From assembly GCF_024700885.2 (NCBI RefSeq), contig NZ_CP117016.1: a DNA stretch of 64,000 nt; one strand, given 5' to 3'. Below the pieces are notes generated by a model. That model saw only the letters and a list, made by a program, of their open reading frames with translations. It ran no database searches and had not been told where the DNA came from. The position numbers and the translations under genes are program-made. This DNA is from Escherichia coli (GTDB lineage: Bacteria > Pseudomonadota > Gammaproteobacteria > Enterobacterales > Enterobacteriaceae). Each line of letters starts with the position of its first letter. Position 1 is the first letter of the stretch. Below are positions 7,965 to 39,958 of this stretch, one piece after another.

Positions 7965-8150
7965 TGAAACATCCCCCCTTCATGCCGGCAATCTCCGCAT
8001 TAATTTATAACAATATGGTATTAATCTTAGCATTAATCGCCCCCTAATCAGCACTAATTCTGCTCACTATAATGACCCCATCAAAGTAAAGCACCGCAGC
8101 GTTGTCCGTCGGAAACCTGTATCTCTCTGTTGTTTTTTATGGGGATTTTT

Positions 8151-16552: not shown

Positions 16553-16570
16553 TGCATTGAATAATAAAAA

Positions 16571-16596
16571 TGGCGCAAATGCAGCGCCATTTTTAT
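16571..16596 (+). terminator. Intrinsic terminator after yagU
   Basis: Stem TGGCGC / GCGCCA with 7-nt loop followed by TTTTTAT. Confidence 0.75.
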
Positions 16597-16800
16597 AGGT
16601 TAAAAACATTGCTTTTTACTTTCTGAAGCAGATAGCCAGTGAGTACATCGCGCTACTTCAGGATGCTGTAGATCCGGAGAACACTATAGAGGAAGATGCA
16701 TTGTTGCTGGCAGATGGAAGAAGTTTCGGGTTTTGTTATCCCTGAAAAACGAAGCCCCGCGGTTATAGCTGGCGGGGCAGTGCAATTAATTATTGCATAT

Positions 16801-18154: not shown

Positions 18155-19766
18155 GAATTTCTCCTGAAGCGCTGACTTCGCCAAACCAGCCGTTATCATC
18201 TACCGTACGCAGCGAAATGGCGTTATCCATTGGAATCGAAAATTTGACAGTGGTCTTATCCATCTGCCCCACTTCGCCAGAGATATCAGTCCACGGTGTA
18301 GTCAGCCACAGCGCATCGGTCATATCCCGCCAGCTATCATCGCACCCGGCATCGTAGGTTTTTGTAGCTCCGTTGCGGGTAATAAAGGAAAGCGTCGCCG
18401 GGAACGGTACTTTCGCCTTACCGTCATCGGAGCTGAAGACACAATAGGAGCGCCCGCCAATCACCTGCGCGGGTCCGGTCACCTTGATCAGCACTTCGTC
18501 GGCAGCTGTTTTACCGCTGGTGGTTACGATATAGCCGAAATCGAGTGCCGACTCGCCGCTGCCGACATATCCCTCCCGCGACGGTGTCTGAGTATATTCA
18601 TCGGAGATAATACTGATGCTGAAATCACGGGGTTTGATAATCAGCGTGTTGGAGGTAGAAAATTCATACCAGCCAGACTCCGGTGATGTCGTGTTCTGAA
18701 AGCGAAAGTTGAATAGATCTTTGGTGTTGATATCGCTGATCCCGAGGTTCACCATCTGCTTAAAGAAGTTGCTCGAGAAGAAAACATAGATCGAGTCTGC
18801 GCTCTTCATCTCGTTGAAGGTGTAGTAATAGGCAGTATTGCTCACCGGTTTCCATGAACTGCCATTCAGACTGAACTGCATATCGTACGCCCCGACGGCC
18901 GAGGCTAACGACGAGTTGGCGATCGCCGGGAATATATGGATTGAGATGTTGCTGAGTCCGTTTGTTTGCAGGGTGTAGTTGACCATCTTACAACTTAATC
19001 CTGAAAGGCTGCCGATGGTTTGCGTCCGGCAGTCGGCGTTCCCTTCGCCCAGAGTCGGTACTCCGTCGCTGTTGATAAATACCTCCGCCAGCGAGTGGGT
19101 ATTTATTAACCGCAGATTTGCTGCTTTCGTATGGGTGACATTGCGAACATACCAGTTGCCGGAGGCCTGATCCTTACAACGCGCGCCGCTGCTGGCGTCA
19201 TAGTTCACAGAGGTCTGACAGGCATTGATGGTCATTGTAAAGCTGCTGCCGACGGGCATTTGTTGCATATACTGGTAAAACGCGTCTGACAACATGCCGT
19301 GCATCCACTTCGCGCCGCCGCTGGTCACCGTCGCGCCATAAAATCCACTGGCGTCGGTGGTTTGCGGCAGGATAAGACTGGTGGTCATATTACACCCTGC
19401 GTACCAGTTGATGCAGCGCAAGCCAGTTAAAGGAGATGAAACTGGTGAATTTTCCAGCCACATATCAAACTTCCAGTTGGTATAAAGGCCGGTGTTGTAA
19501 CCGTTATCAATGTAGCCGAGGCTTTGCTGATAGATGGTTCCTGAACCATTGTATTTTAAACCGGTCCAGCGGTTGGCACCGGTCAGGCGCGGATCCAGCG
19601 CCCCGCCAGGCGTGACGAAAAAGTTGTCGTCTGAGTTGTTTTCGACAAACACAAACTCGCTTGCCGGTGCATCCGCCCAGGTTGTTTTGCTCACTGCAGC
19701 TCTGAGCGCGGTTGCAGGCCAGATTAGCGCAAATATTATCATCGCTATCAGTAGGTTAACTCTCAT
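18123..19766 (-). CDS. ecpD: E. coli common pilus tip adhesin EcpD, 547 aa
   Basis: Size and position in ecpRABCDE. Confidence 0.85.
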
Positions 19767-22281
19767 TCTCTTCTCCTGTCTGCGTCACCGCCGCCCACGA
19801 TGAGAGGCCGCTGCAGACCACATCACCGACCCAGACGGCACCGCGCGCCTGGCTGAGTTCCAGTGCCACTTCGCAGGTTTTATTGCCACTGTAGCGAAAA
19901 TCGATAGTGGGGTATTTCTTATCCACGTCCATGACAAACTCGCCGTTTTCATCGGTTCGGGTTCGGCCGATATGGTTGTTAATCCGTGCGTTAGCCAGCA
20001 GTGTGCCGTCTTCCGCACGGATACGACCGGAGACGGTAACCATCTGCTTCACCTCTGGCTCAATGACAGCGACATTGCCTGGATAGAGAGTCAGATGACT
20101 TTTGCGACCGCTGACGATATCGTAACTGTCGAGTGAGTTTTTGCTGTTCTGTAACTCCACCTCATATCTTCCATAGGGAGAGAGCGGGAGATAGTTACGC
20201 TTGCCGTTAAGCGGGAAAATCCGCCCGTTGATTTTGGCGCTGATCTGACCGTCGTCCTCCAGCCCGGTGTTGAATATCACCCCAGCGTTGCCATCAGTCC
20301 GCCCGCTGGCAGCAATGTTTTTACCCTGCCAGCCGACGCTGCCATTGGCGGTCAAGTTGGTATTGACGTAGCCGTCCGCCGCGCTATTGATGTTCAGCGT
20401 TCCGCTGGCGTAACGAGCGTCGAACTGTGCATACGCTCCACCGCTGAGGGTTTTGTCATCACCGGTATCGCCGGAGATGGCTCGTGACAGATTGGCACCA
20501 ACAGTGCGAATGGTCCCTTCATCAAACTGCTTGCGTGCTGACAGGTTTGCCATGGTGTAGCCGTTTTGATGGGTCATCCCTGCGCTAAACCAGTTGCCCA
20601 GTGGTAGCGAGAGATCGAGAGCGATATATTTTCCTGTATTGGCGCTGCTGTCGCCGTTGTTATAGCGCTGAATACCGGCCCGCAGGCCAAGCGTACCAAA
20701 GGTACCGCTGTAGACACTTTGATAGTAATCTGCCGTGTAATAATGGCTGTTGTAACGGCGGTCATCATTGTAGCTGATGCTGAATGTGCCCAGCTTCGAC
20801 CACAGTGAGTTCAGGTTGAGTGTGCCGCCGATAGCACGGTTGTCGGCATCGCTACGTCGCAATTGATTGCCAATGCGGGTTTTTTCCTGATTAACCCACA
20901 GCGAACTAAAGCCTCCCGGTAGAGTGGCGCTGATGCTGCCGATGCTGCTCCATGAGCTGTCACTGGCCAGCATATTTTGCAGGTTAACGTTGATCGCTCC
21001 CCCAAGCGGCAGCGTCAGACGGGTTTCACCCACCGCCTGATTATCGTATCCATATCCCGTTGCCGCCCAGCTAAGCGTACTCAGTGAGCCGGAGGTCGAG
21101 GCACCTGCCAGCCAACTCTCTTTGGCTGGTCGCGTCTTTTTCCCGTTTTCCGACCAGCGATCCATATGAAAGCTACCGCCCCATATCTGCCACGCCAGTG
21201 GTGCACCGACGCCGCGCCCCCGGCTAAACAGCTTATTGACCCGTTGAGTGCGTTTGCTGATCACGCGACCGTTAACGATGACCTCAACTTCCACATCGTA
21301 AATACCGTACGGTAGACCCCGGGTATCCACTTCATGATTGCCCATGGTGAAGTTCTGAACGCTTAGTAGCCGCCCATCACGGGTGAGATGTACTTCGCCC
21401 GCCGCCGGTAAAAAGGCGATCACTGGCGTGGCTGACTGGCTGCTGTCGAAGATGGTGGAGCTGGCCTGGTTTCCCCAGGAAAGGCCGTAAATCTTCCCTG
21501 CTGAAATGGCGGTCATCGGCCCTAAGGACTGCAAGTTCCAGGTGTCGAGCATTCCACCGGCAAATCGGTGACCGGCAAAATCGCGTTCATACATCGCTTT
21601 ATATAATTCACTGTCCTGTTGACCGCTACCGATCCCGTACAGCGAGCCGTCGAGCACCACGTGATGTTCGCGCAGTGCAGTAACGTTATTCAGCGACAGA
21701 TAGCTGGATGTGTTGCTCCCGCCGTTACGCAACTGGTTGTTATAGACGCCGAAGTTATAGCTCAGATTACTGCTGAGGGTGTTAACACTGGACTGCCCGA
21801 TGTCTTCGCTACGTGAGCGTAGTACGGTGCCCAGCGCTTCGCGCTTGACCACTAGCTGCAGCAGCAGTTGGCGCAAGCTGAGATCCAGCTGCGCGTTGTC
21901 AGTCAGGGGGATGGTAAGGGCCTCATTGAACGGGGCGTTCGCCAGAGCCATCAGCTGCTGTCGAGTTTGTTCGCTGACACTGGCGTTATCTTCACTCTCT
22001 TCCAGCTGTATTTTCCGGATGCGTAGCTGTCCATCATCCAGCCAGATAAAAGCGCTGCCGATTCGCTGATCGTCCTGGCGACCCTGGCTACCGGCGAGAT
22101 GAATATAAAGCGGGACGCTCATGCCGTCCTGGAGCGCCTGACTGAAGGCCTGCGGAATAATCACCCCACCTATTTGCTGCGCACTTATGTCAGCAGCGCT
22201 GGCATCGGGCTGAACGAACAAAAAGACCATGCCGAAGGCAAACTGGGCTTTCAGTCCTGGGGAGAACCGTCGTAAAGGCAT
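19756..22281 (-). CDS. ecpC: E. coli common pilus outer-membrane usher EcpC, 841 aa
   Basis: 841-aa usher-sized protein with signal peptide, between chaperone and adhesin genes. Confidence 0.85.
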
Positions 22282-22306
22282 TGTCGTTATCCATCTGCAC
22301 AGCTAT

Positions 22307-22975
22307 CTATTTCACGGGAATGAACTTATCACCCTGCCAAAGTGCAACCCGTCCTTTGTTATCCGCCGTGTCCACGCGGGTAAAACGACGCGACTTGCCC
22401 GGCATCAGGTAGTAATTCTCTTTACACTCCTTACCATTGGCGGCTTTCAGGCAGGGGCCGTAGGCGAGGATCCGCAGCGTCGCATTTCCTGTATTTGTCA
22501 GGGAGCCGTTGGCGTACTGAAAGCGGTAGTTCGCCTGGCGGGGGGCGACGACCAGAATGGTGCCGATGCGGGCGGAAGCAGTGGCTACAGCGCTGCGGTT
22601 GGCATTATCGCGCTGCGCATCACTGAGGGCCTGATCGAACCAGACAATGCGGTAATAGCGCTCTTTCTCATCTACTGGTCCCTTATAGAAGAAGCGGATC
22701 ACTTCGCTGGCTTGGGCGGGTAGCAGCAAGCTAGCGGGAGTGAGTAGCAACTCATCCGGCTTGTCCATTGAGATAACCTGCCCGTCGTCAAGCGGTGAAG
22801 AGAGCCGTTCGAGACGGATATTGATGAGGCGGCCACTGTCGGTACTGTTTTGGATCGTTTTGCTCAGCGTGCTGCTGTCACTGTTCATAAACGATGATAT
22901 ATCGCCGACATCCAGCGCCTGGGCCGGAGATATTCCGGAAAACAGCAGAGCGAGAGGCAGAAGGTGCTTTTTCAT
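22307..22975 (-). CDS. ecpB: E. coli common pilus periplasmic chaperone EcpB, 222 aa
   Basis: Signal peptide [20 protein letters not shown]; size and synteny. Confidence 0.85.
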
Positions 22976-22990
22976 AACAATTCCGTCCAG

Positions 22991-23016
22991 GAATAAAGCA
23001 GGGGGGCTACCCCTGC
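22991..23016 (-). terminator. Hairpin attenuator/terminator between ecpA and ecpB
   Basis: On the minus strand: stem GCAGGGG / CCCCTGC followed by TTTATTC. Confidence 0.6.
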
Positions 23017-23032
23017 TGGTACATCAGAGAGA

Positions 23033-23620
23033 TTAACTGGTCCAGGTCGCGTCGAACTGTACGCTAACGTCGCCGCTCCAGATGCCTTCCGGTAGAGTGC
23101 TGTAATCGGTTACTGCGGTGGTACCATTGGTGGTGCCGCTGATGATGGTGAAGGTGAAACCATCCTGTGCGGTGGTACGATTGCTGGCATTGTAACCGTT
23201 AGCCAGCGGGCTAAGGTTGCCGCCCAGTACGCCGTTGGCGGTATCGATCATCACGGTATCGCCAGTTTTTTCGACTGCCGCGCCGTTATAATCCACGCCC
23301 ACATTCAGTGTGGAACCTGAGGTATCCAACTGGGTTAATGTGTTGGTGATAAGACGTGAGGTCAGTTTAAAGGCGGTAGCCGTTGAGTCACCTTCGATAG
23401 CCACGTCAAATAGACCTTTCTGTGAGTTAAAACCTTTAATGCCTTCGGCATACTGGAACGCCAGGCTACCGAGTGGCGTCACAACCAGCTTACTGGTGGT
23501 GTCTTTTTTGGCTGTTGCTGACCAGGTCGCTACAGCCTGAGCTGTTACGTCAGCAGCCTGCGCCACACCCATGCCGGTAAACACCGTTACCAGAGCTATT
23601 GCCAGAACCTTTTTTTTCAT
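23033..23620 (-). CDS. ecpA: E. coli common pilus major subunit EcpA, 195 aa
   Basis: Signal peptide [22 protein letters not shown]; pilin-sized; first structural gene after ecpR. Confidence 0.9.
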
Positions 23621-23693
23621 TGCTTTTCTTCCCGAGTTGAATTGAGGACATGAAGTCCCGGTGAGTCATTTTTAAAACTAACTTGCCTGGAGT

Positions 23694-24305
<612 letters not shown>

Positions 24306-25228
24306 TTACAGGTGCATTCAGTTTCCTTAGTAAACCGGAGGTAAATAAGATACGTAGTACATATCAATAAAGGTTAAACGAGATTAAGTTTAATTATTTT
24401 CGATTGGGCTTAAATTTATGTTTTTTTCCCGATGAGTGTCAATATGTGAACGGAAAAGGAATTCAATGGTTAAGTCAATATTTAGAAAAACTGAAAATAT
24501 TGCTTTTTTGATAAGAAGAAAAAGACATTTAGTTTCATAAGGTTATTGGCAATATAACGTTCATTTCTTACTTGCATTTTATATTGGTCAGGAACTTTGC
24601 CCTGAAGTGTTAGGAATAGTCTTAATGCGCTGTGTGATGGACTAGTAAAAAAACAAGTTTTAAGGGTAAGGGATAGAATATAAAACTATTATGAGCTGTC
24701 ATTGAAGATGATTTGCCAATCAGTAAGATATTTTAATGGATTAACATGCCGCACAAAATGGTTATAGGTGTTCATTACAATAAGTGATGGAAAATTGAAC
24801 GGGTATAAGTACGTCATCTGTTCGGTAAGTCCCCCAAGAGCCAAATTAAGTGAAGTTAAACGAAGGCTGCCAGCTGTCACAGGAACGATGGCCTCTTTGT
24901 CAGGGCACTGCATTCAGTCATCTGTGCGCATTACTCTAACTGGCACTCGAACGTCAGCGACGGGGTTACCGGTGGATCAGGCTGTTCCTGTGGCGTAAAC
25001 GTTTTTATGTTAGTACCAACAGATTTACCACATTTATCATCTTAACAGTTTGAGTGAAAATGCAGGCTGCGCCGCAAAGGGAGGAGACTGATGGCGTGTT
25101 CAGTCTAAAAGAGGGTTGATGCCAGCATACAGGGGCGAAGCTGGTCAACACGTCAACATTAATATAATGGAATATTCGGAGAGAAACGTCAGGCAGTTGA
25201 CCTTAAATGAACAGGAAGATACATCCCC

Positions 25229-25268
25229 AGGAAAATTAATGCTGGTGTAATAAATACACCAACATTAA
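25229..25268 (-). terminator. Intrinsic terminator of the rpmE2-rpmJ2 operon
   Basis: 14-bp stem TTAATGCTGGTGTA / TACACCAACATTAA (one G-U) then, on the minus strand, TTTTCC. Confidence 0.6.
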
Positions 25269-25319
25269 TCCGGTCTGATTATTAATCAGACAAATATCGT
25301 TAATTCGTCGAATTTTAAA

Positions 25320-25754: not shown

Positions 25755-26087
25755 CAAAGATACATGCTCATCCGGATCATTTCAACACCCAATCCCTGTG
25801 ACTATTTGTAGGATGTGGAATTTCCGCAACGGAGAAGTCTGGTATTGTTAGCAGCCATTGGCGACGCTCTCATAAACGCCTGGATGAGTGATTGATGATG
25901 GTTTCGCTGAGAGTATGAATTTTTCGAGAATGGAGGCTATCTCCACTTTACTGGCCGATGATTTATCGCAGTTTGATTGATTACCTGACAGCGTGTATTC
26001 CTCTCCCACGGATATAATAATTACTTACAAAAAAGGGAGAGGATGCATATTTTAAATATCACTGCAGTGAACAGTTTATTGCCGTTA

Positions 26088-26189
26088 TTAATAGAAATGG
26101 AGAAATAAATAGGCGTATTCTACAATTGCGACAAAAACAACGATATTAATCAGTTTATGACTGATTTGCTGTACTTTATTCTCTTTCAT
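26088..26189 (-). CDS. ykgR: Small membrane protein YkgR, 33 aa
   Basis: Hand translation MKENKVQQISHKLINIVVFVAIVEYAYLFLHFY; below track cutoff. Confidence 0.7.
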   Translation of the reverse strand: MKENKVQQISHKLINIVVFVAIVEYAYLFLHFY

Positions 26190-26661: not shown

Positions 26662-27804
26662 TTAATCTATTAACGGAAACCAGCCAGTTCCTTTCGATGC
26701 CTGAATTTGATCCCATAGTTTATCCGGAATGGTTAATTCAGGAACAAGTTGTGGATTAAGGGTTGTTTGAATTTCATGGCCTCTACCTGATTCAGCTAAA
26801 GTCACCCATTCTGGATTTATCACCAGCCCTTTACCGATCGCAACAAGTGGCAGGCCAGTGGAAATTGCTTCTTGAGCCTGAGACGGTGTGCGTATTTTAC
26901 CTGCAGCGATTACCGGCACTCTGCCTGCAATATGATTTAAAATCAATTCAATAGTTCGGGGGCCATTTGGCGACTCAACAGGGTAGCTATCGTTAATACT
27001 GACCAGCGAGGTATGTATATACGAAATACCGGATGAAATGAGCCGATCAAGGAGTTTATAAGTATCCTCTATCCGCAGCCCCCCTGTTACAGATTCTTCA
27101 GGAGATATTCTGTAACCGATAGCAAAGGGCTTTGTCGCATATTCATAGACTACATTTTTTACTTCCTGTAATACGGCCAGCGGGAAGCGCATACGTCCTT
27201 CAAGATCTCCTCCCCATCGGTCATTACGCTGGTTAAATAGAGGGGAGAAGAAATTCTGCAGAAGGAATCCGTGCGCACCATGAAGTTCAACGCCATCAAA
27301 ACCTGCTTTAATCGCCCTTTTTGTGACATCTCCGAATGCTCTAATGGTTTCCTGAATTTCGTTTTCAGTCATTTCCCTGCTTTGTACCACTCTCTTCATA
27401 AAGTCACCAGATTTTACGCTTGATGCGCTGGCACTAATAACATCGTTATTTGGTACAAGCTCCGGGATGGCTTTATTACCGGCGTGGAAAATCTGCAAAA
27501 TAGCCGGAGCCCCCCCACTTTGGGCTGCCGCTGCTAACTTTTCAAGGCTGTTAATGAAACGGTCGTCATATGCGGCAAATTCATGAGTAAACCCAATGCC
27601 GCTTGGCGTGACATAGGTACATCCTGTTATTACTAAACCAACATTTTGTGAGCGGCGTTTATAAAATTCGAGTTCTTGCTCAGAGATGGTTCCATCAGGA
27701 TTCGCTGACCAGGTCGTCATAGGGGCCATAACGATACGATTACGTAGCTTTATTTTTTCTGTCAGCATAAAAGGAGAAAACAATGATGGGTGTTTATTTG
27801 TCAT
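26662..27804 (-). CDS. Old Yellow Enzyme family NADH:flavin oxidoreductase (380 aa)
   Basis: OYE/NemA-like sequence including HGAHGFLL...F motif region. Confidence 0.8.
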   Translation of the reverse strand: MTNKHPSLFSPFMLTEKIKLRNRIVMAPMTTWSANPDGTISEQELEFYKRRSQNVGLVITGCTYVTPSGIGFTHEFAAYDDRFINSLEKLAAAAQSGGAPAILQIFHAGNKAIPELVPNNDVISASASSVKSGDFMKRVVQSREMTENEIQETIRAFGDVTKRAIKAGFDGVELHGAHGFLLQNFFSPLFNQRNDRWGGDLEGRMRFPLAVLQEVKNVVYEYATKPFAIGYRISPEESVTGGLRIEDTYKLLDRLISSGISYIHTSLVSINDSYPVESPNGPRTIELILNHIAGRVPVIAAGKIRTPSQAQEAISTGLPLVAIGKGLVINPEWVTLAESGRGHEIQTTLNPQLVPELTIPDKLWDQIQASKGTGWFPLID

Positions 27805-28048
27805 AACAATACCTCAAATGTTTATCTGATTTTGATGCGTATGTTTTAACTGGTTAGTTGTTGCCAGCTTTGGAACCAAGATTTCTGGCTTTATTTATAA
27901 TCCCTTCAAAGGGTTTCTAATAATCTTAATAATTGAGTTGCTGCTTTTTTGTTTCTTTAATGAAATTTCTTTTTGAGTAATTTTATTATTGTTGTGTAGT
28001 CAATAAAGGATAAATGTCAGGGAGATAAGGAATCTCCCTGTAAAATTA

Positions 28049-28969
28049 TTACAAATGTGTTTTATAAAAAGGAATTAATTTATCGAGTGCCTGTTTCACA
28101 GGTTCTGGCTTATCATACAGGTCGTAATGTGAATAACCTTCAACCACGACCAGCTCTTTATGTTTTGAGGCAGCGCGGCCAATAATTTCGCAGCCGTCAC
28201 GGTAGGCACCAAATGCGCCCACTCTATCGCCCACCACAACCATTATTGGTTGAGTTAACAGGACTTCTGCAAGATGAAATGCATCCCAACCCACGGCAAC
28301 AGTCTGATGTGAGAATAGCGAACGATTTACCCCATTAGGTGCACAGCCTCGTGGCGAACGATAATATTCTGTGGCTTCAAAAAGGTCTATTTCTGTTAAT
28401 CCCGCTTCAAGAGCTGCATCCGGAGAAGAGGGGAGTAAATCATCTACGCGAAGTTTTGCGCCGTTAGCTTCGTCTGTTCTTTGTTGCGCCATTGCTTCGA
28501 GTGCTCCGATAGGATTAAACGCTGTAAATCCCTCACGCATAAGACGCCCGTAGTTTGCACCCGTGACAGTACCAATAGCTTTAATTCGACGTTCTGTCAT
28601 TGCGGCATTAATGGCATATCCACCTCCACCACAAATACCCAGTACACCAATACGCCCGGCATCAACGTAAGGTAAGGTGGTAAGGTAATCAACGACAATG
28701 CTGAAGTCTTTTACTCGCATTGTTGGATCTTCCAGATAACGCGGTTCCCCACCGCTGCTTCCCTGAAAACTGGCATCAAAAGCAATGACGATAAAGCCAG
28801 CTTTTGCCAGGGCGGCACCATACACACTACCCGATGTCTGTTCTTTGCAGCTTCCAATTGGATGGGCGCTGATAATGGCAGGATACTTTTTTTCACTATT
28901 AAAATCGTCAGGGAAATAGATATCAGCAGCTATATCCCAGTAAGTGTGTTTTATCGAAACAGTTTTCAT
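28049..28969 (-). CDS. Alpha/beta hydrolase (dienelactone hydrolase-like), cytoplasmic paralog (306 aa)
   Basis: Shares GVLGICGGGGYAINAA and C-terminal VVVEGYSHYDLYD with the disrupted gene at 8151-9279. Confidence 0.8.
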   Translation of the reverse strand: MKTVSIKHTYWDIAADIYFPDDFNSEKKYPAIISAHPIGSCKEQTSGSVYGAALAKAGFIVIAFDASFQGSSGGEPRYLEDPTMRVKDFSIVVDYLTTLPYVDAGRIGVLGICGGGGYAINAAMTERRIKAIGTVTGANYGRLMREGFTAFNPIGALEAMAQQRTDEANGAKLRVDDLLPSSPDAALEAGLTEIDLFEATEYYRSPRGCAPNGVNRSLFSHQTVAVGWDAFHLAEVLLTQPIMVVVGDRVGAFGAYRDGCEIIGRAASKHKELVVVEGYSHYDLYDKPEPVKQALDKLIPFYKTHL

Positions 28970-29125
28970 TTCAAGCTCCGGGGATTTGCCTAAACAGATT
29001 TAAATATCATTTCTATTATCCGCAACTGGCATTCGTGTTCATATCGAGAACGGCGTAATAGTATGACTTGTATTGGTTATCATCAATGGTCTAATATCTA
29101 TCACAGTGTTAAGTTAAGGTTTACA

Positions 29126-30052
29126 ATGATGAAAATAGAGCCTTCAATTTTGCCTTCTCTTGCCTGGTTTGCGCATATTGTTCGTGCCGGCAGTTTTTCC
29201 AGAGCCGCTTCTGAAATGGGTATTACGCGGGCCGCATTGTCCCAGAATTTAAAATCTCTTGAGGAACGTCTTAACACCAAGCTGATATACCGTACGACCC
29301 GCAATATGTCGCTTACTGAGGAAGGACTGCGTCTGTATGAAGTGCTGGTGTCGGCTTTGGGGCAAATTGATGATGCTTTGAAAGATGTTGGTGATACCCA
29401 ACTTGAACCTACAGGCCTGTTGAGAATAAATTCCTCCCGTGTTGCAGCAAGGATGCTTATTGAGCCTCATATTGGCGAGTTTCTTACTCGTTACCCCAAA
29501 ACAAAGATAGAACTCATTATGGATGACGGTTTATCTAACATTATTGCGGACGGCTGTGATGTGGGCATACGTCTTGAGCAAGGACTGGATGAGCATATGA
29601 CTGCCGTTCCTGTTTCTCCGCTTATTAAACTGGTTACTGTGGCATCGCCAGATTATTTAAAAGAACACGGTATTCCTGAAACGCCTCAGGAACTGAGTAA
29701 CCATAATTGCCTTCGGTTGCGGCATAAAAGTAGCGGTGCACTCTCTGCATGGGAGTTTTCTAATGTTGCGGGCGGGAATGAAGAGTTCGAAATAGAGGTT
29801 TCAGGTAAGTATATTTCTAATGATGACGAAAGCATGATACGAATGGCGCTGAATGGAACGGGTATCATTCAACATCTGGATTTTGCAATCGCTGAACATA
29901 TCAATGCGGGCAAGTTACAGCCGATTCTTGAGGATTGGGCCGTTTCATTTCCTGGGTTTTATATATATGTTTCATCACGGGTGAGAATGCCCTCTAAAGT
30001 TCGTGCTTTTATTGATTTTATGGTGGAGAAAAGAGTAAAAATAGAAAGTTAA
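29126..30052 (+). CDS. LysR-family transcriptional regulator (308 aa from Met-22)
   Basis: HTH FAHIVRAGSFSRAASEMGITRAALSQ; start chosen at MMKIEP with AAGG RBS (track start 29063). Confidence 0.8.
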   Translation: MMKIEPSILPSLAWFAHIVRAGSFSRAASEMGITRAALSQNLKSLEERLNTKLIYRTTRNMSLTEEGLRLYEVLVSALGQIDDALKDVGDTQLEPTGLLRINSSRVAARMLIEPHIGEFLTRYPKTKIELIMDDGLSNIIADGCDVGIRLEQGLDEHMTAVPVSPLIKLVTVASPDYLKEHGIPETPQELSNHNCLRLRHKSSGALSAWEFSNVAGGNEEFEIEVSGKYISNDDESMIRMALNGTGIIQHLDFAIAEHINAGKLQPILEDWAVSFPGFYIYVSSRVRMPSKVRAFIDFMVEKRVKIES

Positions 30053-30134
30053 TGATGTGTGTCAGAATATCGGTAAGAAGAATGGCACAATCGTGAGGAT
30101 ACGTTTATTCATAATAAATCTCCTGAAAGTTTAG

Positions 30135-33058
<2,924 letters not shown>

Positions 33059-33608
33059 TTATCGTTCATGAGAAGCATAACGTAAAGGGAAAAGCTCGAT
33101 TAGACGGCAGGATTTGTCAGGGGTTATGAACGAAATTCATAAATCTGTTTGAGTGTTGCGATGAGTCGTGCAAGTTCGATATCCCTGCAATTCACAGTCT
33201 GATGAAGGAAAATGAATATCCATAAAAAATATATTGGTTTATCCTGGTGTATATACCTACTTCGACGTATTCCCAATAGCGATTAATTAAAGATAGGTCA
33301 TTATTATTCACTCTTAATAATGAATTATTCACTGCCCGCAGAGTAAGAAATATAACTTAAGTATCTATTTAATAACTTGCACAAAAAGCTAAATTTTTAC
33401 CCATAAATAAAAATATAATCCCGCGCCCAACCACCTGATGAGTGGCTACAGACACTGGATATATTAGGTGGCGGTGTACTTTCTTACATAAAGGTATTTC
33501 CTTTTCTGCGGAAAAGGAAATCGGGGATTTCCCGGTTTTTCTGACAAGCAGACGCCACTATTTGTGTCTGCCTATGTTCGTTAATTCGTTCATCAGGAAA
33601 TTATCTCA

Positions 33609-36600
33609 ATGTCACGTTATAAAACAGGTCATAAACAACCACGATTTCGTTATTCAGTTCTGGCCCGCTGCGTGGCGTGGGCAAATATCTCTGTTCAGGT
33701 TCTTTTTCCACTCGCTGTCACCTTTACCCCAGTAATGGCGGCACGCGCGCAGCATGCGGTTCAGCCACGGTTGAGCATGGAAAATACCACGGTAGCTGCT
33801 GATAATAATGTGGAGAAAAATGTCGCGTCGTTTGCCGCAAATGCCGGGACATTTTTAAGCAGTCAGCCAGATAGCGATGCGACACGTAACTTTATTACCG
33901 GAATGGCCACAGCTAAAGCTAATCAGGAAATACAGGAGTGGCTTGGGAAATATGGTACTGCGCGCGTCAAACTGAATGTCGATAAAGATTTCTCGCTGAA
34001 GGATTCTTCGCTGGAAATGCTTTATCCTATTTATGATACGCCGACAAATATGTTGTTCACTCAGGGGGCAATACATCGTACCGACGATCGTACTCAGTCA
34101 AATATTGGTTTTGGCTGGCGTCATTTTTCAGGAAATGACTGGATGGCGGGGGTGAATACTTTTATCGATCATGATTTATCCCGTAGTCATACCCGGATTG
34201 GTGTTGGTGCGGAATACTGGCGCGATTATTTGAAACTGAGCGCCAATGGTTATATTCGGGCTTCTGGCTGGAAAAAATCGCCGGATGTTGAGGATTATCA
34301 GGAACGCCCGGCGAATGGCTGGGATATTCGTGCTGAGGGCTATTTACCTGCCTGGCCGCAGCTTGGCGCAAGCCTGATGTATGAGCAGTATTATGGTGAT
34401 GAAGTCGGGCTGTTTGGTAAAGATAAACGCCAGAAAGACCCGCATGCTATTTCTGCCGAGGTAACCTATACACCAGTGCCTCTTCTGACACTGAGCGCCG
34501 GGCATAAGCAGGGCAAGAGTGGTGAGAATGACACTCGCTTTGGCCTGGAAGTTAATTATCGGATTGGCGAACCTCTGGAAAAACAACTCGATACAGACAG
34601 CATTCGCGAGCGTCGAATGCTGGCAGGCAGCCGCTATGACCTGGTTGAGCGTAATAACAATATCGTTCTTGAGTATCGCAAATCTGAAGTGATCCGTATT
34701 GCTCTGCCTGAGCGTATTGAAGGCAAGGGCGGCCAGACGGTTTCCCTGGGGCTTGTGGTCAGCAAAGCAACTCACGGTCTGAAAAATGTGCAATGGGAAG
34801 CGCCGTCTTTGCTGGCCGCAGGCGGAAAAATTACGGGGCAGGGCAATCAGTGGCAAGTGACGCTCCCGGCTTATCAGGCAGGCAAAGACAATTATTATGC
34901 GGTTTCAGCGATTGCCTACGATAACAAAGGCAATGCCTCGAAACGTGTGCAGACAGAAGTGGTTATTAGCGGAGCTGGTATGAGCGCCGATCGTACGGCG
35001 TTAACGCTTGACGGTCAGAGCCGTGTTCAAATGCTTGCTAACGGTAATGAGCAAAAGCCGCTGGTGCTGTCTCTGCGCGACGCCGAGGGTCAGCCAGTCA
35101 CGGGCATGAAAGATCAGATCAAGACTGAACTAACTTTCAAACCGGCTGGAAATATTGTGACTCGTTCTCTGAAGGCCACTAAATCACAGGCAAAGCCAAC
35201 ACTGGGTGAGTTCACCGAAACTGAAGCAGGGGTGTATCAGTCTGTCTTTACTACCGGCACGCAGTCAGGTGAGGCAACGATTACTGTTAGCGTTGATGGC
35301 ATGAGCAAAACCGTCACTGCAGAACTGCGGGCCACGATGATGGATGTGGCAAACTCCACCCTGAGCGCTAACGAGCCGTCAGGTGACGTGGTTGCTGATG
35401 GTCAGCAAGCCTACACGCTGACACTGACAGCGGTGGACTCCGAGGGTAATCCGGTGACGGGAGAAGCCAGCCGCCTGCGACTTGTTCCGCAAGACACTAA
35501 TGGTGTTACCGTTGGTGCCATTTCGGAAATAAAACCTGGGGTTTACAGCGCCACGGTTTCTTCGACCCGTGCCGGAAACGTTGTTGTACGTGCCTTCAGC
35601 GAGCAGTATCAACTGGGCACATTACAACAAACGCTGAAGTTTGTTGCCGGGCCGCTTGATGCAGCACATTCGTCCATCACCCTGAATCCTGATAAACCGG
35701 TGGTCGGCGGTACGCTTACGGCAATCTGGTCGACAAAAGATGCCAATGACAACCCTGTGACCAGCCTCACGCCGGAAGCGCCGTCATTAGCGGGTGCCGC
35801 TGCTGTTGGTTCTACGGCATCGGGCTGGACAAATAATGGTGATGGGACGTGGACTGCGCAAATTACTCTTGGCTCTACGACGGGTGAATTAGCGGTAATG
35901 CCGAAGCTCAATGGACAGGACGCGGCAGCGAATGCGGCTAAAGTGACCGTGGTGGCTGATGCCTTATCTTCAGGCCAGTCGACAGTCTCTGTGGCAAAAG
36001 ATCACGTAAAAGCAGGCGAAAGCACAACCGTGACGCTTATTGCAAAAGATGCACATGGCAACGCTATCAGCGACCTTTCCCTGTCGGCAAGCCTGACAGG
36101 TGCTGCATCTGAAGGGGCGACGGTATCCAACTGGACCGAGCAAGGCGATGGTTCCTATGTCGCTACGCTGACAACAGGCGGAAAGACAGGTGAGCTTCTT
36201 GTCATGCCGCTATTCAACGGTCAGCCAGCAGCCACCGATGCTGCGCGGTTGACTGTCGTAGCGGGGGATATGTCATCAGCGAACTCTACGCTTGTTGCGG
36301 ACAATGAGGCTCCGACCGTCAAAGCGACGACGAAACTCACCTTCACCGTGAAGGATGCGTATGGGAACCTTGTCACCGGGCTGAAGCCAGATGCACCGCA
36401 GTTTAGTGGTGCCGCCAGCACGGGGTCAGTGCGACCTTCAACAGGAGACTGGTCAGAAACAAGTAATGGGGTCTACGTGGCGACCTTGACTCTGGGATCT
36501 GCCGCGGGCCAGTTGTCTGTGATGCCGCGAGTGAACGGCCAAAATGCCGTTGCTCAGCCACTGGTGCTGAATGTTGCAGGCGACGCTTCCCGGGCAGTGA

Positions 36601-37862
36601 TCAGTGATATGGCGGTGAAGGTGAATAACCAACTGGCAAATGGACAGTCTGCTAACCAGGTAACCCTGACCGTCGTGGACAGCTATGGTAACCCGTTGCA
36701 GGGGCAAGAAGTTACGCTGACTTTACCGCAGGGTGTGACTAGCAAGACGGGGAATACAGTAACAACCAATGCGGCAGGTAAAGCGGATATTGAGTTGATA
36801 TCAACCGTTGCAGGGGAACTTGAAATCGCGGCCGCGGTGAAAAACTCTCAGAAGACGGTCACGGTGAAATTCAACGCGGATGCCAGCACCGGTCAGGCAA
36901 ACCTGCAGGTAGACACCGCCGTTCAAAAAGTGGCAAACGGCAAAGATGCCTTTACGCTGACGGCGACCGTTGAGGATAAAAACGGTAACCCTGTTCCAGG
37001 CACTCTGGTGACCTTTAATCTGCCCCGGGGTGTCAAGCCGCTTACTGGCGATAATGTCTGGGTGAAAGCCAACGATGAGGGGAAAGCAGAGTTGCAGGTG
37101 GTTTCCGTGACTGCCGGAACCTATGAGATCACGGCGTCGGCAGGAAATGACCAGCCTTCAGATGCGCAGACTATAACGTTTGTAGCCGATAAGGCTACCG
37201 CAACCGTTTCCAGTATTGAGGTGATTGGCAACTATGCACTGGCGGACGGCAAAGCCAAACAGACGTATAAAGTTACGGTGACTGATGCCAATAACAACCT
37301 GTTGAAAGATAGCGACGTGACGCTGACTGCCAGCCCGGCTTCGTTAAACCTGGAACCGAATGGCACTGCGACAACGAATGAGCAAGGGCAGGCTATTTTC
37401 ACCGCTACCACTACTGTTGCGGCGACATACACACTCAAGGCGCAAGTGAGTCAGACCAACGGTCAGGTATCAACGAAAACTGCCGAATCTAAATTCGTCG
37501 CGGATGATAAAAACGCGGAGCTCACCGCATCATCTGATGTGCAATCGCTGGTGGCGGATGGGAAATCGACTGCGAAGCTGGAGGTTACCCTGTTCTCGGC
37601 AAATAACCCTGTTGGGGGGAATGTGTGGGTCGACATTGAGGCTCCGGAAGGAGTGACGGAGAAGGATTATCAATTCCTGCCGTCGAAAAATGACCATTTC
37701 GTGAGCGGAAAAATCACGCGTACATTTAGTACCAGCAAGCCTGGTGTCTATACGTTCACATTTAACGCCCTGACCTATGGCGGGTACGAAATGAAGCCAG
37801 TGACGGTGACCATAACCGCGGTGGATGCCGATACGGCAAAGGGCGAGGAGGCGATGAAGTAA
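33609..37862 (+). CDS. fdeC: Intimin/invasin-family adhesin FdeC (EaeH), full length, 1417 aa
   Basis: N-terminal inverse-autotransporter beta-domain followed by many Ig-like repeats; uninterrupted ORF. Confidence 0.85.
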   Translation: MSRYKTGHKQPRFRYSVLARCVAWANISVQVLFPLAVTFTPVMAARAQHAVQPRLSMENTTVAADNNVEKNVASFAANAGTFLSSQPDSDATRNFITGMATAKANQEIQEWLGKYGTARVKLNVDKDFSLKDSSLEMLYPIYDTPTNMLFTQGAIHRTDDRTQSNIGFGWRHFSGNDWMAGVNTFIDHDLSRSHTRIGVGAEYWRDYLKLSANGYIRASGWKKSPDVEDYQERPANGWDIRAEGYLPAWPQLGASLMYEQYYGDEVGLFGKDKRQKDPHAISAEVTYTPVPLLTLSAGHKQGKSGENDTRFGLEVNYRIGEPLEKQLDTDSIRERRMLAGSRYDLVERNNNIVLEYRKSEVIRIALPERIEGKGGQTVSLGLVVSKATHGLKNVQWEAPSLLAAGGKITGQGNQWQVTLPAYQAGKDNYYAVSAIAYDNKGNASKRVQTEVVISGAGMSADRTALTLDGQSRVQMLANGNEQKPLVLSLRDAEGQPVTGMKDQIKTELTFKPAGNIVTRSLKATKSQAKPTLGEFTETEAGVYQSVFTTGTQSGEATITVSVDGMSKTVTAELRATMMDVANSTLSANEPSGDVVADGQQAYTLTLTAVDSEGNPVTGEASRLRLVPQDTNGVTVGAISEIKPGVYSATVSSTRAGNVVVRAFSEQYQLGTLQQTLKFVAGPLDAAHSSITLNPDKPVVGGTLTAIWSTKDANDNPVTSLTPEAPSLAGAAAVGSTASGWTNNGDGTWTAQITLGSTTGELAVMPKLNGQDAAANAAKVTVVADALSSGQSTVSVAKDHVKAGESTTVTLIAKDAHGNAISDLSLSASLTGAASEGATVSNWTEQGDGSYVATLTTGGKTGELLVMPLFNGQPAATDAARLTVVAGDMSSANSTLVADNEAPTVKATTKLTFTVKDAYGNLVTGLKPDAPQFSGAASTGSVRPSTGDWSETSNGVYVATLTLGSAAGQLSVMPRVNGQNAVAQPLVLNVAGDASRAVISDMAVKVNNQLANGQSANQVTLTVVDSYGNPLQGQEVTLTLPQGVTSKTGNTVTTNAAGKADIELISTVAGELEIAAAVKNSQKTVTVKFNADASTGQANLQVDTAVQKVANGKDAFTLTATVEDKNGNPVPGTLVTFNLPRGVKPLTGDNVWVKANDEGKAELQVVSVTAGTYEITASAGNDQPSDAQTITFVADKATATVSSIEVIGNYALADGKAKQTYKVTVTDANNNLLKDSDVTLTASPASLNLEPNGTATTNEQGQAIFTATTTVAATYTLKAQVSQTNGQVSTKTAESKFVADDKNAELTASSDVQSLVADGKSTAKLEVTLFSANNPVGGNVWVDIEAPEGVTEKDYQFLPSKNDHFVSGKITRTFSTSKPGVYTFTFNALTYGGYEMKPVTVTITAVDADTAKGEEAMK

Positions 37863-37982
37863 TATTAAGAATATGAAAGTAACATTCTAATAAACAATAA
37901 TGGCGTTGACATCTTCAACGCCATTATTTATTGAATTGCCTGACAGTAGTCTCGTTATAAATTCATGTAAACATCGTTACAG

Positions 37983-38873
37983 CTAAACCGGGCGAACGGG
38001 GATAAAAATTTCGCAAACAATGTTATTGCTATCAATTTCGACGAAGTTTTCATTGTAATAAAATCGCTCAATATCACTGCCGTTCACTCTGGCTAACCCC
38101 CTGGCAGGTAATTCCATCAGATAGAGGTTTCGCGCCCATTCAGGGTAGTGCTCCCACTCACCTTCATAGCGGAAAGAGGCATACAGTCCTCGGTTAATTG
38201 TCCACTCTTTCGACATCTCTGAATCGGTTTGTTTGCATACCGTACCGGAAAAAGTTTCAACTGTGAGCAAATCGACCGATTTTGTTGACGGTTCGAATGT
38301 GGAGACGAAATAGATATCCGTCTTAAAACTCTTCATACATCTGGCTAAATGATGACGTCGCAGTTTGACTTCTTCATCCGGTGATTTATTCGACACTTCA
38401 ATGTCATATTTAAATGAATCGCCAAAAATAGGTGTCTCAGGAAAGTTGACTAATTTACACTCCGTCTTTTGCTGTTGACGTATTAAAAAAGAAGGGAAGA
38501 TATTTGCGAGATCCCAATAATCACGGTGGCGGTATTCACGGGGAGAGCAGCCGAATAACTTTTTAAATTCACGGCTGAATGACTGCTGTGAATCAAAATG
38601 CAAAGAGAGTGCAATATCAAGCATAGATTTCGCGGTGAGCCGGACAAGAATGGCGGCACGACAAAGCCTTCGTTTGCGAATGTATTCTCCCAAAGGCACA
38701 TGCATGAAATTTCGGAACAGAAGCTGGATGTTGCGTCTGCTGTAGCCAGATTTCTGTGCGATATCTTCGATTGAAATAGGGTGCTCAAGATTGCACTCAA
38801 TCCACTCCAGGAGCTGCTGTAGAATCTTCTGCCTGATCATCACATTCTCCATTAATTCTTTGTCATATCGCAC
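37983..38873 (-). CDS. ykgA: AraC-family regulator with C-terminal GyrI-like domain (YkgA-like), 296 aa
   Basis: AraC HTH region IEDIAQKSGYSRRNIQLLF...FDSQQSFSREFKKLFGCSPREYR; alternative start at 38840. Confidence 0.7.
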   Translation of the reverse strand: MRYDKELMENVMIRQKILQQLLEWIECNLEHPISIEDIAQKSGYSRRNIQLLFRNFMHVPLGEYIRKRRLCRAAILVRLTAKSMLDIALSLHFDSQQSFSREFKKLFGCSPREYRHRDYWDLANIFPSFLIRQQQKTECKLVNFPETPIFGDSFKYDIEVSNKSPDEEVKLRRHHLARCMKSFKTDIYFVSTFEPSTKSVDLLTVETFSGTVCKQTDSEMSKEWTINRGLYASFRYEGEWEHYPEWARNLYLMELPARGLARVNGSDIERFYYNENFVEIDSNNIVCEIFIPVRPV

Positions 38874-39073
38874 ATTTTCGTTATGCCCTGGGCCCTAAGT
38901 GTATCAAAAACAGCAAGGCCCAAGGCAAAAGCACTGGTAGCGTCTGCTTCGTTGTCCCCGAAAATAGAGAGGTTTCAGCCCTACATTATTAATGAATTTT
39001 TTGCATAAGTGATATCAAAATCCACATACTAATTTGAGGTTATGTTTTAACGTAGACTCATTGTTCATGCCTA

Positions 39074-39958
39074 ATGGAGGGACTGACAGTGGAATTTTCC
39101 GTATTAAGTAACAATCTGAAAATGCCGATGATGGGATTTGGTGTTTTTCAGGTTACCGATAAAAACGTGTGCAAACAGTCAGTGTTGAATGCTATCCGCA
39201 CGGGTTATCGACTCATCGACACTGCAGCGGTATACGGTAATGAAGATGCCGTCGGTGAAGCCGTTCGTGAAGCTATATCTGAAGGTTTATGTACCCGAGA
39301 AGAGTTATTTATAACGTCTAAATTGTGGGTGCAGGATATGGTGAATCAGGATATTGCAGCAGCAGGTATTGAAGCATCATTAAAAAAATCGGGACTGGAA
39401 TACTTCGATCTCTTTTTATTGCACCAGGCCATGCGCGATTATTTCAGTGCGTGGCGTGCACTCGAAGATGCCTATGAAGAGGGCAAATTAAAAGCGATTG
39501 GGGTTTCCAATTTCTACCCTCATGTTCTGGCGAACTTTTGTGAAACGGTAAGAGTTAAACCGATGGTCAACCAGGTCGAGTTGCATCCCTATTTTGCCCA
39601 ACCAGAGGCGCTGGCAACCATGAAGTATTATAACGTGCAGCCTGAAGCATGGGCTCCGTTAGGTGGTGGACGACATAAACCCTTTGAAAATAATCTGCTT
39701 CAGAGTATTGCAGATGCCCATCAAAAATCGATTTCTCAGGTCATTCTGCGTTGGAATATTCAACGGGGAGTGGTCGTTATTCCGAAATCGACACATCAAC
39801 AGCGTATCGAAGAAAATTTTGCTATTTGGGATTTCTCACTGACAGAGAAAGAAATGGCGCAAATTAGTTCGCTTGATTTGGGTTATGTTGGGGAATCGGT
39901 AAAACATTTTAATCCTGAGTTTGTTCGTAGTTGTCTTGCTGTAAAAATACATGATTGA
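39074..39958 (+). CDS. Aldo-keto reductase, 294 aa
   Basis: MPMMGFGVFQ...LIDTAAVYGNE motif; start codon uncertain. Confidence 0.75.
   Translation: MEGLTVEFSVLSNNLKMPMMGFGVFQVTDKNVCKQSVLNAIRTGYRLIDTAAVYGNEDAVGEAVREAISEGLCTREELFITSKLWVQDMVNQDIAAAGIEASLKKSGLEYFDLFLLHQAMRDYFSAWRALEDAYEEGKLKAIGVSNFYPHVLANFCETVRVKPMVNQVELHPYFAQPEALATMKYYNVQPEAWAPLGGGRHKPFENNLLQSIADAHQKSISQVILRWNIQRGVVVIPKSTHQQRIEENFAIWDFSLTEKEMAQISSLDLGYVGESVKHFNPEFVRSCLAVKIHD

What the first reader, a model, noticed from the sequence alone, without database searches (positions are those of the whole stretch)
33609..37862. Intact full-length fdeC (eaeH) adhesin gene
A single 1417-codon ORF encodes an intimin/invasin-like adhesin. 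From memory, in K-12 this gene is a pseudogene interrupted by IS3; here there is no IS and no interruption, so this strain may express the adhesin.
Basis: established knowledge. Interest (0 to 1): 0.3.

Follow-up and report, generated by a model that had tools for sequence, protein, structure and literature searches.

The report
Intact fdeC adhesin gene, ordinary
The window carries a complete copy of fdeC, a well-studied E. coli surface adhesin gene; the complete form is the normal state in about 85% of sequenced E. coli, and the broken copy in laboratory strain K-12 is the exception, so the finding is correct but ordinary.

Summary
Window 33609-37862 (+) is one uninterrupted 1417-codon ORF, and RefSeq annotates the identical CDS as fdeC (WP_000092568.1). 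It encodes a type Ve (inverse autotransporter) adhesin: a signal peptide, a 12-strand-type IAT beta-barrel (aa 76-350) and ten Ig-like modules (aa 358-1412). It has no LysM domain and no C-terminal lectin domain. It sits at the canonical fdeC locus, between two aldo/keto reductase genes and ykgA-rclCBA. Twenty-four complete genomes carry a copy at least 99% identical over gene plus flanks (21 listed at 100.0%). 4585 of 5426 complete E. coli genomes carry at least 80% of the gene, so the intact state is the norm. K-12 keeps the promoter and codons 1-292, but IS3A replaces 3695 bp (codons 293-1417 plus the 3' end of ykgA). That is an IS3-associated deletion, not a simple interruption. The gene is under purifying selection (dN/dS 0.15-0.23), with a conserved membrane-proximal half and a mosaic, variable distal half. 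Having the gene does not mean it is expressed: published work shows H-NS silencing, with induction at 39 C or above or on host-cell contact. A predicted helix in the conserved leader that sequesters the Shine-Dalgarno site is a weak, unconfirmed lead. Verdict: already known, low interest.

The parts
33609..37862 (+). fdeC (eaeH) coding sequence, 1417 codons plus stop, intact
   Evidence: same CDS annotated as fdeC WP_000092568.1 in NZ_CP023386.1
33609..33749 (+). Extended N-terminal signal peptide (aa 1-47): basic n-region (K5, H8, K9, R12, R14), hydrophobic core about aa 17-44, A-R-A motif at aa 45-47
   Evidence: Hydropathy scan and inspection; aa 9-57 invariant among six alleles. No signal-peptide predictor was available, so the cleavage site is inferred.
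33834..34658 (+). Inverse-autotransporter beta-barrel domain (aa 76-350)
   Evidence: Pfam PF11924 IAT_beta, E 4e-109, profile positions 3-279 of 279; matches the invasin and intimin barrel structures 4E1T and 4E1S, E 2e-82 and 9e-71
34680..34985 (+). First (D00-like) Ig-like module next to the barrel (aa 358-459)
   Evidence: PDB 6TQD intimin match over aa 358-480, E 6e-12
34986..37844 (+). Nine tandem Ig-like (Big_1 / Invasin_D3) repeats of about 100 aa each: aa 460-583, 580-685, 685-788, 788-890, 890-995, 998-1095, 1094-1198, 1200-1303, 1301-1412
   Evidence: Iterative self-HMM; Pfam Invasin_D3 with 9 stretches and Big_1 with 4 stretches; PDB 4E9L (FdeC fragment) covers aa 595-1008
35709..37859 (+). 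Variable, mosaic distal passenger (aa 701-1417): 83-96% aa identity to other alleles, against 97-99% for aa 1-700
   Evidence: dS 0.27-0.36 against ST131, O157 and NCTC10973 and 0.11 against PCN033; dN/dS 0.22-0.29; against PCN033, dS is 0.26 for codons 701-1000 but 0.007 for codons 1001-1417
33044..33608 (+). 565-bp divergent intergenic region holding the fdeC promoter and leader. It contains an AT-rich trough (27.5% GC at 33200-33399), a perfect TATAAT at 33414-33419, and the SD AGGA at 33595-33598.
   Evidence: About 96% mean column identity across phylogroups and retained in K-12. No strong sigma-70 consensus in the intergenic region by the scan. The promoter position is not mapped here.
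33537..33600 (+). Predicted leader helix UUUUCUGA (33537-33544) pairing with UCAGGAAA (33593-33600), which sequesters the Shine-Dalgarno site; hypothesis only
   Evidence: all pairs invariant, no covariation
37896..37928 (.). Hairpin with a 13-14-bp stem between the convergent fdeC and ykgA genes; probable bidirectional intrinsic terminator
   Evidence: Terminator scan; RNA fold -21.1 kcal/mol, z = -5.0, 0 of 200 shuffles fold as well
34485..38179 (.). The 3695 bp absent from K-12 MG1655, where IS3A stands in their place: fdeC codons 293-1417, the intergenic terminator, and the 3' 197 bp of ykgA
   Evidence: blastn of the window against NC_000913.3: window 33058-34484 = K-12 313807-315232, and window 38180-39104 = K-12 316482-317400; K-12 annotation
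37983..38840 (-). ykgA-like AraC-family regulator with a GyrI-like ligand domain, convergent neighbour of fdeC. It is truncated in K-12 by the same IS3 event. No link to fdeC regulation is shown.
   Evidence: Pfam HTH_18, HTH_AraC and GyrI-like; RefSeq annotation

Best explanation
This is the intact chromosomal fdeC (eaeH) gene, encoding a type Ve (inverse autotransporter) adhesin. The following mechanism is taken from characterised orthologues, not shown for this strain. The extended signal peptide takes the 150-kDa precursor through Sec. The N-terminal domain (aa 76-350) is inserted into the outer membrane as a beta-barrel, with help from BAM and TAM. The C-terminal passenger is threaded out through the barrel and forms a rod of ten Ig-like domains. 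This rod binds collagens and epithelial cells and promotes bacterial aggregation and biofilm. Transcription starts in a conserved, AT-rich divergent intergenic region. It is normally silenced by H-NS and is relieved at 39 C or above or on host-cell contact. The membrane-proximal half of the protein is strongly conserved. The surface-distal half is a recombining mosaic of old alleles, as expected for an exposed antigen. The K-12 'eaeH' pseudogene is the 292-codon stump left by an IS3A-associated 3.7-kb deletion specific to the K-12 lineage.
For: Shown here:
- The ORF is intact and matches the RefSeq fdeC CDS.
- 24 complete genomes are at least 99% identical over gene plus flanks, and 4585 of 5426 carry at least 80% of the gene.
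- Pfam gives a full-length IAT_beta match plus 9 Invasin_D3 and 4 Big_1 stretches.
- The PDB search matches the FdeC fragment 4E9L (E 4e-230, 89.4% identity) and the intimin and invasin barrels.
- A self-HMM resolves nine repeats.
- Synteny is conserved in ST131, O157, PCN033 and NCTC10973.
- dN/dS is 0.15-0.23 overall and 0.04-0.11 in the barrel region.
- The K-12 junctions are mapped.
- NCTC10973 shares K-12's flanking deletions but has an intact fdeC.
- The upstream region is AT-rich and 96% conserved.

From the literature:
- Adhesion, collagen binding, expression on host-cell contact, and the K-12 pseudogene (PMC3324786).
- TAM-assisted assembly and 10 Big domains (PMC4943183).
- H-NS and temperature control (Easton 2014, as cited in PMC11143625).
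- Contact-activated eaeH in ETEC (PMC4309559).
Against: Nothing contradicts the identification. Expression, surface display and binding were not and cannot be tested here. The promoter and transcription start are not mapped, and the simple sigma-70 scan finds no strong promoter in the intergenic region. The distal passenger differs by up to 17% from characterised alleles, so ligand specificity could differ. In APEC IMT5155, deleting fdeC increased adhesion at 42 C (PMC11143625), so 'adhesin' does not fully describe its role in every background.
Confidence: 0.96

Rival explanations
1. The gene is intact but effectively cryptic in this strain. It is permanently silenced by H-NS and contributes nothing, so 'intact' has no phenotypic meaning.
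For: FdeC is not detected under standard culture in ExPEC or EHEC (PMC3324786; PMC11143625 citing Easton 2014). The upstream region is AT-rich at 27.5% GC. No strong sigma-70 consensus was found. The SD is predicted to be mostly paired.
Against: Purifying selection acts on the whole gene (dN/dS 0.15-0.23). The leader is conserved well below synonymous divergence: about 3.5% in the last 229 nt against O157, compared with dS 0.155 for codons 1-350. The gene is retained intact in about 85% of genomes. Infected patients make antibodies to EaeH (PMC4309559).
Confidence: 0.1
2. It is an intimin or invasin proper: a Tir-binding or integrin-binding inverse autotransporter, not FdeC.
For: It shares the barrel and Ig-like domains. 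NCBIfam intimin_all matches at E 2e-112, and the PDB intimin and invasin barrels match.
Against: The intimin_all score of 376.5 is far below the 1400 cutoff, and the invasin model scores 307 against a cutoff of 710. There is no LysM hit and no Intimin_C lectin domain hit. Only about 28 residues lie between the signal peptide and the barrel. The gene sits at the fdeC locus, not in the LEE.
Confidence: 0.01
3. The uninterrupted ORF is an assembly or sequencing artefact that hides a real lesion.
For: None specific. The window does differ from its closest genome by an 8-bp indel elsewhere, at about 9048.
Against: The gene with 200-bp flanks is listed at 100.0% identity in 21 independently sequenced complete genomes from humans, chickens, a dog and water, with three more at 99% or above. 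The length agrees with all other intact alleles.
Confidence: 0.01

Closest known systems
FdeC of ExPEC IHE3034 (ECOK1_0290; crystal structure 4E9L; Nesta et al. 2012, PMC3324786)
   Same: Same gene, same locus and same architecture (1416 aa against 1417 aa). The crystallised fragment aligns without gaps to aa 595-1008.
   Different: Identity over that fragment is 89.4%. Identity to the B2-type allele of ST131 is 92.4% overall and 86.6% over aa 701-1417. The last residues also differ (…KGEEAMK here, …TEGAEEK in ST131).
EaeH of ETEC H10407 and FdeC of EHEC O157:H7
   Same: Orthologues. The O157 allele is also 1417 aa and 93% identical. The promoter and leader are nearly identical, including the SD and start codon.
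   Different: The distal passenger is 89.3% identical to O157. The upstream neighbourhood also differs: O157 SS17 has lost or truncated one LysR gene and one aldo/keto reductase gene.
K-12 eaeH pseudogene (b0297)
   Same: The first 876 nt are homologous (97.8% over the coding part; 96.5% when the upstream region is included), with 4 aa differences in 292 residues. The promoter region is retained.
   Different: K-12 lacks codons 293-1417. IS3A replaces 3695 bp, including the 3' end of ykgA. K-12 also lacks the 6.3-kb six-gene block upstream and most of the downstream aldo/keto reductase gene. Those two deletions are shared with NCTC10973, which nevertheless has an intact fdeC.
Intimin (Eae) and Yersinia invasin
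   Same: Same secretion type (Ve), homologous barrel, and an Ig-like passenger.
   Different: FdeC has no LysM domain and no C-terminal C-type lectin-like receptor-binding domain. Its passenger is much longer, with ten Ig-like modules. It has no Tir partner and is not in the LEE.

Membership tests
Inverse autotransporter (type Ve secretion) family | N-terminal Sec signal peptide | tested here: met
   Basic n-region, hydrophobic core at aa 17-44 and an ARA motif at aa 45-47, by hydropathy and inspection. No dedicated predictor was available.
Inverse autotransporter (type Ve secretion) family | IAT beta-barrel domain (PF11924) placed N-terminal to the passenger | tested here: met
   PF11924 at aa 76-350, profile positions 3-279 of 279, E 4e-109, 364.8 bits against a cutoff of 22.3; PDB 4E1T and 4E1S barrels
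Inverse autotransporter (type Ve secretion) family | C-terminal passenger built of bacterial Ig-like domains | tested here: met
   Invasin_D3 with 9 stretches, Big_1 with 4 stretches; nine repeats plus a D00-like module
Inverse autotransporter (type Ve secretion) family | Outer-membrane insertion and surface display of the passenger (BAM/TAM dependent) | not testable with these tools
   Shown for CFT073 FdeC in PMC4943183, not for this allele
FdeC/EaeH orthologous group | More than about 90% aa identity to characterised FdeC alleles (Nesta 2012 reports more than 91% among strains) | tested here: met
   97% to PCN033, 93% to O157, 92% to ST131, 90% to NCTC10973; 89.4% to 4E9L across the most variable region
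FdeC/EaeH orthologous group | Conserved chromosomal position between the aldo/keto reductase genes and ykgA-rclCBA | tested here: met
FdeC/EaeH orthologous group | Curated naming of the identical protein | tested here: met
   WP_000092568.1, 'inverse autotransporter adhesin FdeC'. No FdeC-specific NCBIfam HMM appeared among the hits, and every related model scored below its cutoff.
FdeC/EaeH orthologous group | Binding to collagen and epithelial cells; induction on host contact or at 39 C and above | not testable with these tools
   Literature only
Intimin (Eae) | NCBIfam intimin_all equivalog score at or above the cutoff | tested here: not met
   376.5 bits against a cutoff of 1400
Intimin (Eae) | Periplasmic LysM domain and C-terminal lectin-like Intimin_C domain | tested here: not met
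   Neither appears among the Pfam hits. The linker between signal peptide and barrel is only about 28 aa.
Yersinia-type invasin | Invasin equivalog score; integrin-binding C-terminal domain | tested here: not met
   Ve_Inv_Crono_N scores 307 against a cutoff of 710. 1CWV matches only an Ig-like stretch, aa 1006-1141.

The most novel reading that the evidence does not exclude
The highly conserved fdeC 5' leader may contain a fourU-like element that sequesters the Shine-Dalgarno site. In this reading, UUUUCUGA (33537-33544) pairs with UCAGGAAA (33593-33600). The helix would add a post-transcriptional, possibly temperature-sensitive, layer to the known H-NS silencing and help explain why FdeC is seen only at 39 C or above. 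The evidence does not exclude this but supports it only weakly. The helix is predicted in the MFE and consensus folds, and the leader is conserved well below synonymous divergence. Against it, the predicted melting between 25 and 45 C is shallow (P(unpaired) rises from 0.09 to 0.14, or from 0.24 to 0.41). The pairing partner changes with the assumed 5' end. There is no covariation, no Rfam match, and the transcription start is unknown.
Probability: 0.06. Interest if true: 0.4.

Novelty: already known. Interest (0 to 1): 0.07.

Why it matters
It matters little beyond correct annotation. FdeC/EaeH is a broadly conserved E. coli adhesin and a vaccine candidate. This strain has the usual intact gene, in an allele shared at 99% identity or above by about 24 sequenced genomes. 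Two points are useful. First, K-12 is the atypical reference here: its copy is the stump left by an IS3-associated deletion. Second, the surface-distal half of the protein is a recombining mosaic, which is relevant to vaccine coverage and has already been described in the literature.

Tried and rejected
1. Simple IS3 interruption in K-12: rejected. No fdeC sequence lies beyond IS3A, and 3695 bp are deleted.
2. The intact state as a pathogen-specific or unusual feature: rejected. About 85% of complete genomes carry it, including NCTC10973, which shares K-12's flanking deletions.
3. Gene decay or relaxed constraint in the divergent distal half: rejected. dN/dS is 0.2-0.35 with raised dS, and relatedness switches abruptly, which points to recombination among old alleles.
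4. Intimin or invasin membership: rejected.
5. A sigma-70 promoter scan of the intergenic region found no strong site, so the promoter is not located.
6. Rfam found nothing in 32900-38100 at E up to 1.
7. RNA-thermometer test: the in-silico temperature response was shallow and depended on the assumed 5' end.
8. Search for orthologues to test covariation: a degenerate DNA pattern scan of genome contigs returned a single locus, Escherichia sp. E1V33, whose leader is nearly identical and therefore uninformative.
9. Easton et al. 2014 (PMC4249167) could not be read. Its findings are cited second-hand.
10. Technical: loci fetched in the same turn are written into one sandbox file, which caused three failed or empty scripts.
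Full report
**Observation**

Window 33609..37862 on the + strand is a single ATG-initiated ORF of 1417 codons with no internal stop. From my own arithmetic, a stop-free run of that length has a chance probability of about 1e-30. A megablast of the ORF with 200-bp flanks against 5426 complete E. coli genomes found 24 records at 99% identity or above, 21 of them listed at 100.0%. In all of these, PGAP annotates the gene as 'fdeC: inverse autotransporter adhesin FdeC'. In strain 1190 (NZ_CP023386.1) the annotated CDS has exactly the same start and stop as the window ORF, and its protein is WP_000092568.1. The window is collinear with that genome. It is 100% identical over window 25409-46062, and identical apart from one 8-bp indel over window 1-25490.

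**What the gene encodes**

- Pfam gives a full-length inverse-autotransporter beta-barrel (PF11924) at aa 76-350, E 4e-109, followed by nine Invasin_D3 stretches and four Big_1 stretches. There is no LysM hit and no Intimin_C hit.
- NCBIfam models for intimin, invasin, SinH, YchO and IatC all match through the shared barrel, but every one scores far below its curated cutoff. For example, intimin_all scores 376.5 against 1400.
- The PDB search gives the crystallised FdeC fragment 4E9L as best hit (E 4e-230, aa 595-1008). It also matches the invasin and intimin barrels 4E1T and 4E1S (aa 113-357) and intimin D00 (6TQD, aa 358-480).
- An iterative self-HMM resolves nine repeats of about 100 aa between aa 460 and 1412. 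With the D00-like module this makes ten Ig-like modules, the number given for FdeC by Heinz et al. 2016 (PMC4943183).
- The N-terminus has a basic n-region, a hydrophobic core (aa 17-44) and an ARA motif at aa 45-47. Only about 28 residues separate it from the barrel, which leaves no room for a LysM domain.

**Genomic context**

fdeC lies downstream of two divergently oriented aldo/keto reductase genes and converges on a ykgA-like AraC/GyrI-like regulator gene. Beyond that come another aldo/keto reductase gene and rclCBA/rclR. The same arrangement is found in ST131, O157:H7 SS17, PCN033 and NCTC10973. It matches the 'fdeC cluster' of Nesta et al. 2012 (PMC3324786). A stable hairpin at 37896-37928 lies between the convergent genes and looks like a bidirectional terminator (z = -5.0).

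**The K-12 comparison**

I aligned the window against MG1655.

- Window 33058-34484 matches K-12 313807-315232 at 96.5%. This covers the upstream region plus the first 876 nt (292 codons) of fdeC.
- Window 34485-38179 (3695 bp) has no counterpart in K-12. IS3A (K-12 315229-316483) stands in its place.
- Homology resumes at window 38180, inside ykgA.

K-12 eaeH (b0297) is therefore the stump left by an IS3-associated deletion. That deletion removed codons 293-1417, the terminator and the 3' 197 bp of ykgA.

K-12 also lacks a 6.3-kb six-gene block upstream (window 26754-33057, leaving the ykgP remnant) and most of the downstream aldo/keto reductase gene (the ykgQ remnant). NCTC10973 shares those two flanking deletions yet has an intact 1418-aa fdeC. 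The fdeC loss is therefore specific to the K-12 lineage. In the spread listing, the 876-nt remnant appears only in K-12-type laboratory strains (4FA, NEB Turbo, HT-947, C600).

**How common the intact state is**

5078 of 5426 genomes have some match, and 4585 (84.5%) have a single place covering at least 80% of the gene. In 60 rows sampled evenly down the ranking:

- 53 were full-length, single-piece fdeC.
- 2 carried IS insertions (ISEc23 and IS1).
- 2 were partial.
- 4 were the K-12 stump.
- 1 was a trace.

Nesta et al. found the gene in 99% of ExPEC, 83% of commensal or faecal isolates and 29% of 'nonpathogenic' (mostly laboratory) strains. The intact state is the rule, and K-12 is the exception.

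**Allele and selection**

This allele is uncommon. Over the coding sequence, 25 records are at 99% identity or above, 684 at 95-99% and 4313 at 90-95%. The divergence is concentrated in one half of the protein.

| Region | aa identity to PCN033, O157, ST131, NCTC10973 |
|---|---|
| aa 1-700 | 97-99% |
| aa 701-1417 | 96%, 89%, 87%, 83% |

Nei-Gojobori estimates give:

- dN/dS of 0.15-0.23 for the whole gene.
- dN/dS of 0.04-0.11 for codons 1-350.
- dN/dS of 0.22-0.29 for the distal half, where dS is also raised (0.27-0.36 against ST131, O157 and NCTC10973).
- Against PCN033, dS is 0.26 for codons 701-1000 but 0.007 for codons 1001-1417, which is a clear recombination mosaic.

The gene is therefore under purifying selection, and its exposed distal part is a shuffled set of old alleles. 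This agrees with the subtype conservation map in Heinz et al. and the variant analysis in PMC11143625.

**How it most likely works**

This is inferred from characterised orthologues.

1. Sec exports the precursor.
2. The barrel is inserted into the outer membrane with BAM and TAM assistance.
3. The Ig-like rod is exported through the barrel.
4. The rod binds collagen and epithelial cells and promotes aggregation and biofilm.

Expression is conditional. FdeC appears on host-cell contact in ExPEC and ETEC. It is H-NS-repressed and seen only at 39 C or above in EHEC (Easton 2014, read only through PMC11143625). It is induced at 42 C in APEC.

The window's 565-bp upstream region is consistent with this. 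It has an AT-rich trough of 27.5% GC. It is about 96% conserved across phylogroups, with an identical SD and start codon. The simple scan finds no strong sigma-70 consensus in it. 'May express' is therefore fair, but only under inducing conditions.

**A side lead in the leader**

Folding the 5' leader predicts three stem-loops and a closing helix in which UUUUCUGA (33537-33544) pairs with UCAGGAAA (33593-33600), covering the SD (z = -3.1). This brings a fourU-type thermometer to mind. The tests I could run give it little support.

- Predicted SD accessibility is low: 0.09-0.36 at 37 C, depending on the assumed 5' end.
- It rises only slightly between 25 and 45 C, and the pairing partner changes with the assumed 5' end.
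- All pairs are invariant in five E. coli alleles and in the one non-E. coli orthologue I could retrieve, Escherichia sp. E1V33.
- Rfam has no match.

The leader is conserved well below synonymous divergence: about 3.5% against O157 over the last 229 nt, compared with dS 0.155 in codons 1-350. That shows constraint, but a promoter or H-NS and regulator binding sites would explain it equally well. I keep it as a low-probability lead.

**Verdict**

The finding is an already-known, ordinary feature of E. coli genomes. Novelty: already known. Interest: low.

Noticed in passing
window 1-5894: The left end holds a remnant of a P4-like satellite prophage: a TOPRIM/DUF927 primase (cut, 1-736), psu (1877-2428) and ogr/delta (2434-2706). 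It carries a complete type II-A retron. The msr RNA is at 3296-3365 (Rfam RF00170, 53.4 bits against a gathering score of 52). The NDT-type effector is at 3530-4498 (PADLOC NDT_II-A, E 2e-79) and the reverse transcriptase at 4485-5417 (RT_II-A, E 7e-123). RefSeq calls it 'retron St85 family'. An adjacent RipA-family membrane protein (5412-5894, minus strand) has no PADLOC hit.
   Followed up: partly
window 8229-9279 (indel at about 9048): The only difference between window 1-46062 and strain 1190 is an 8-bp deletion (TCATTTAT) in an alpha/beta hydrolase gene. It splits the 352-aa ORF into 8130-9077 and 8968-9279. This is either a strain-specific frameshift pseudogene or a sequencing error.
   Followed up: partly
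window 26754-33057 and 39105-39829: A 6.3-kb block of six genes lies upstream of fdeC: a flavin oxidoreductase, an alpha/beta hydrolase, two LysR regulators and two aldo/keto reductases. The downstream aldo/keto reductase gene is also present here. Both are deleted in K-12 and NCTC10973, which retain only the ykgP and ykgQ remnants.
   Followed up: yes
window 33470-33611: The fdeC 5' leader is predicted to fold into three stem-loops plus a helix that sequesters the SD. It is almost invariant across E. coli phylogroups and in Escherichia sp. E1V33. There is no covariation and no Rfam match.
   Followed up: partly
window 6746-6868 and 26034-26156: A 123-bp partial duplicate of the ykgR region (91% identity) lies about 19 kb from the intact ykgR. 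RefSeq annotates the copy as an incomplete ykgR, next to a LysR fragment. It may mark an old rearrangement or insertion boundary next to the P4-like element.
   Followed up: no
window 17444-24236 (minus strand); 16558-16758; 25060-25285: The ecpRABCDE operon (E. coli common pilus), a second adhesin system, lies about 9 kb from fdeC. An IS009 sRNA (Rfam RF02111, 190.7 bits) is at 16558-16758. RefSeq marks ykgL as frameshifted in the identical genome.
   Followed up: no
window 37896-37928: A perfect hairpin with a 13-14-bp stem lies between the convergent fdeC and ykgA genes (-21.1 kcal/mol, z = -5.0). It is a probable bidirectional terminator, and the IS3 event deleted it in K-12.
   Followed up: partly
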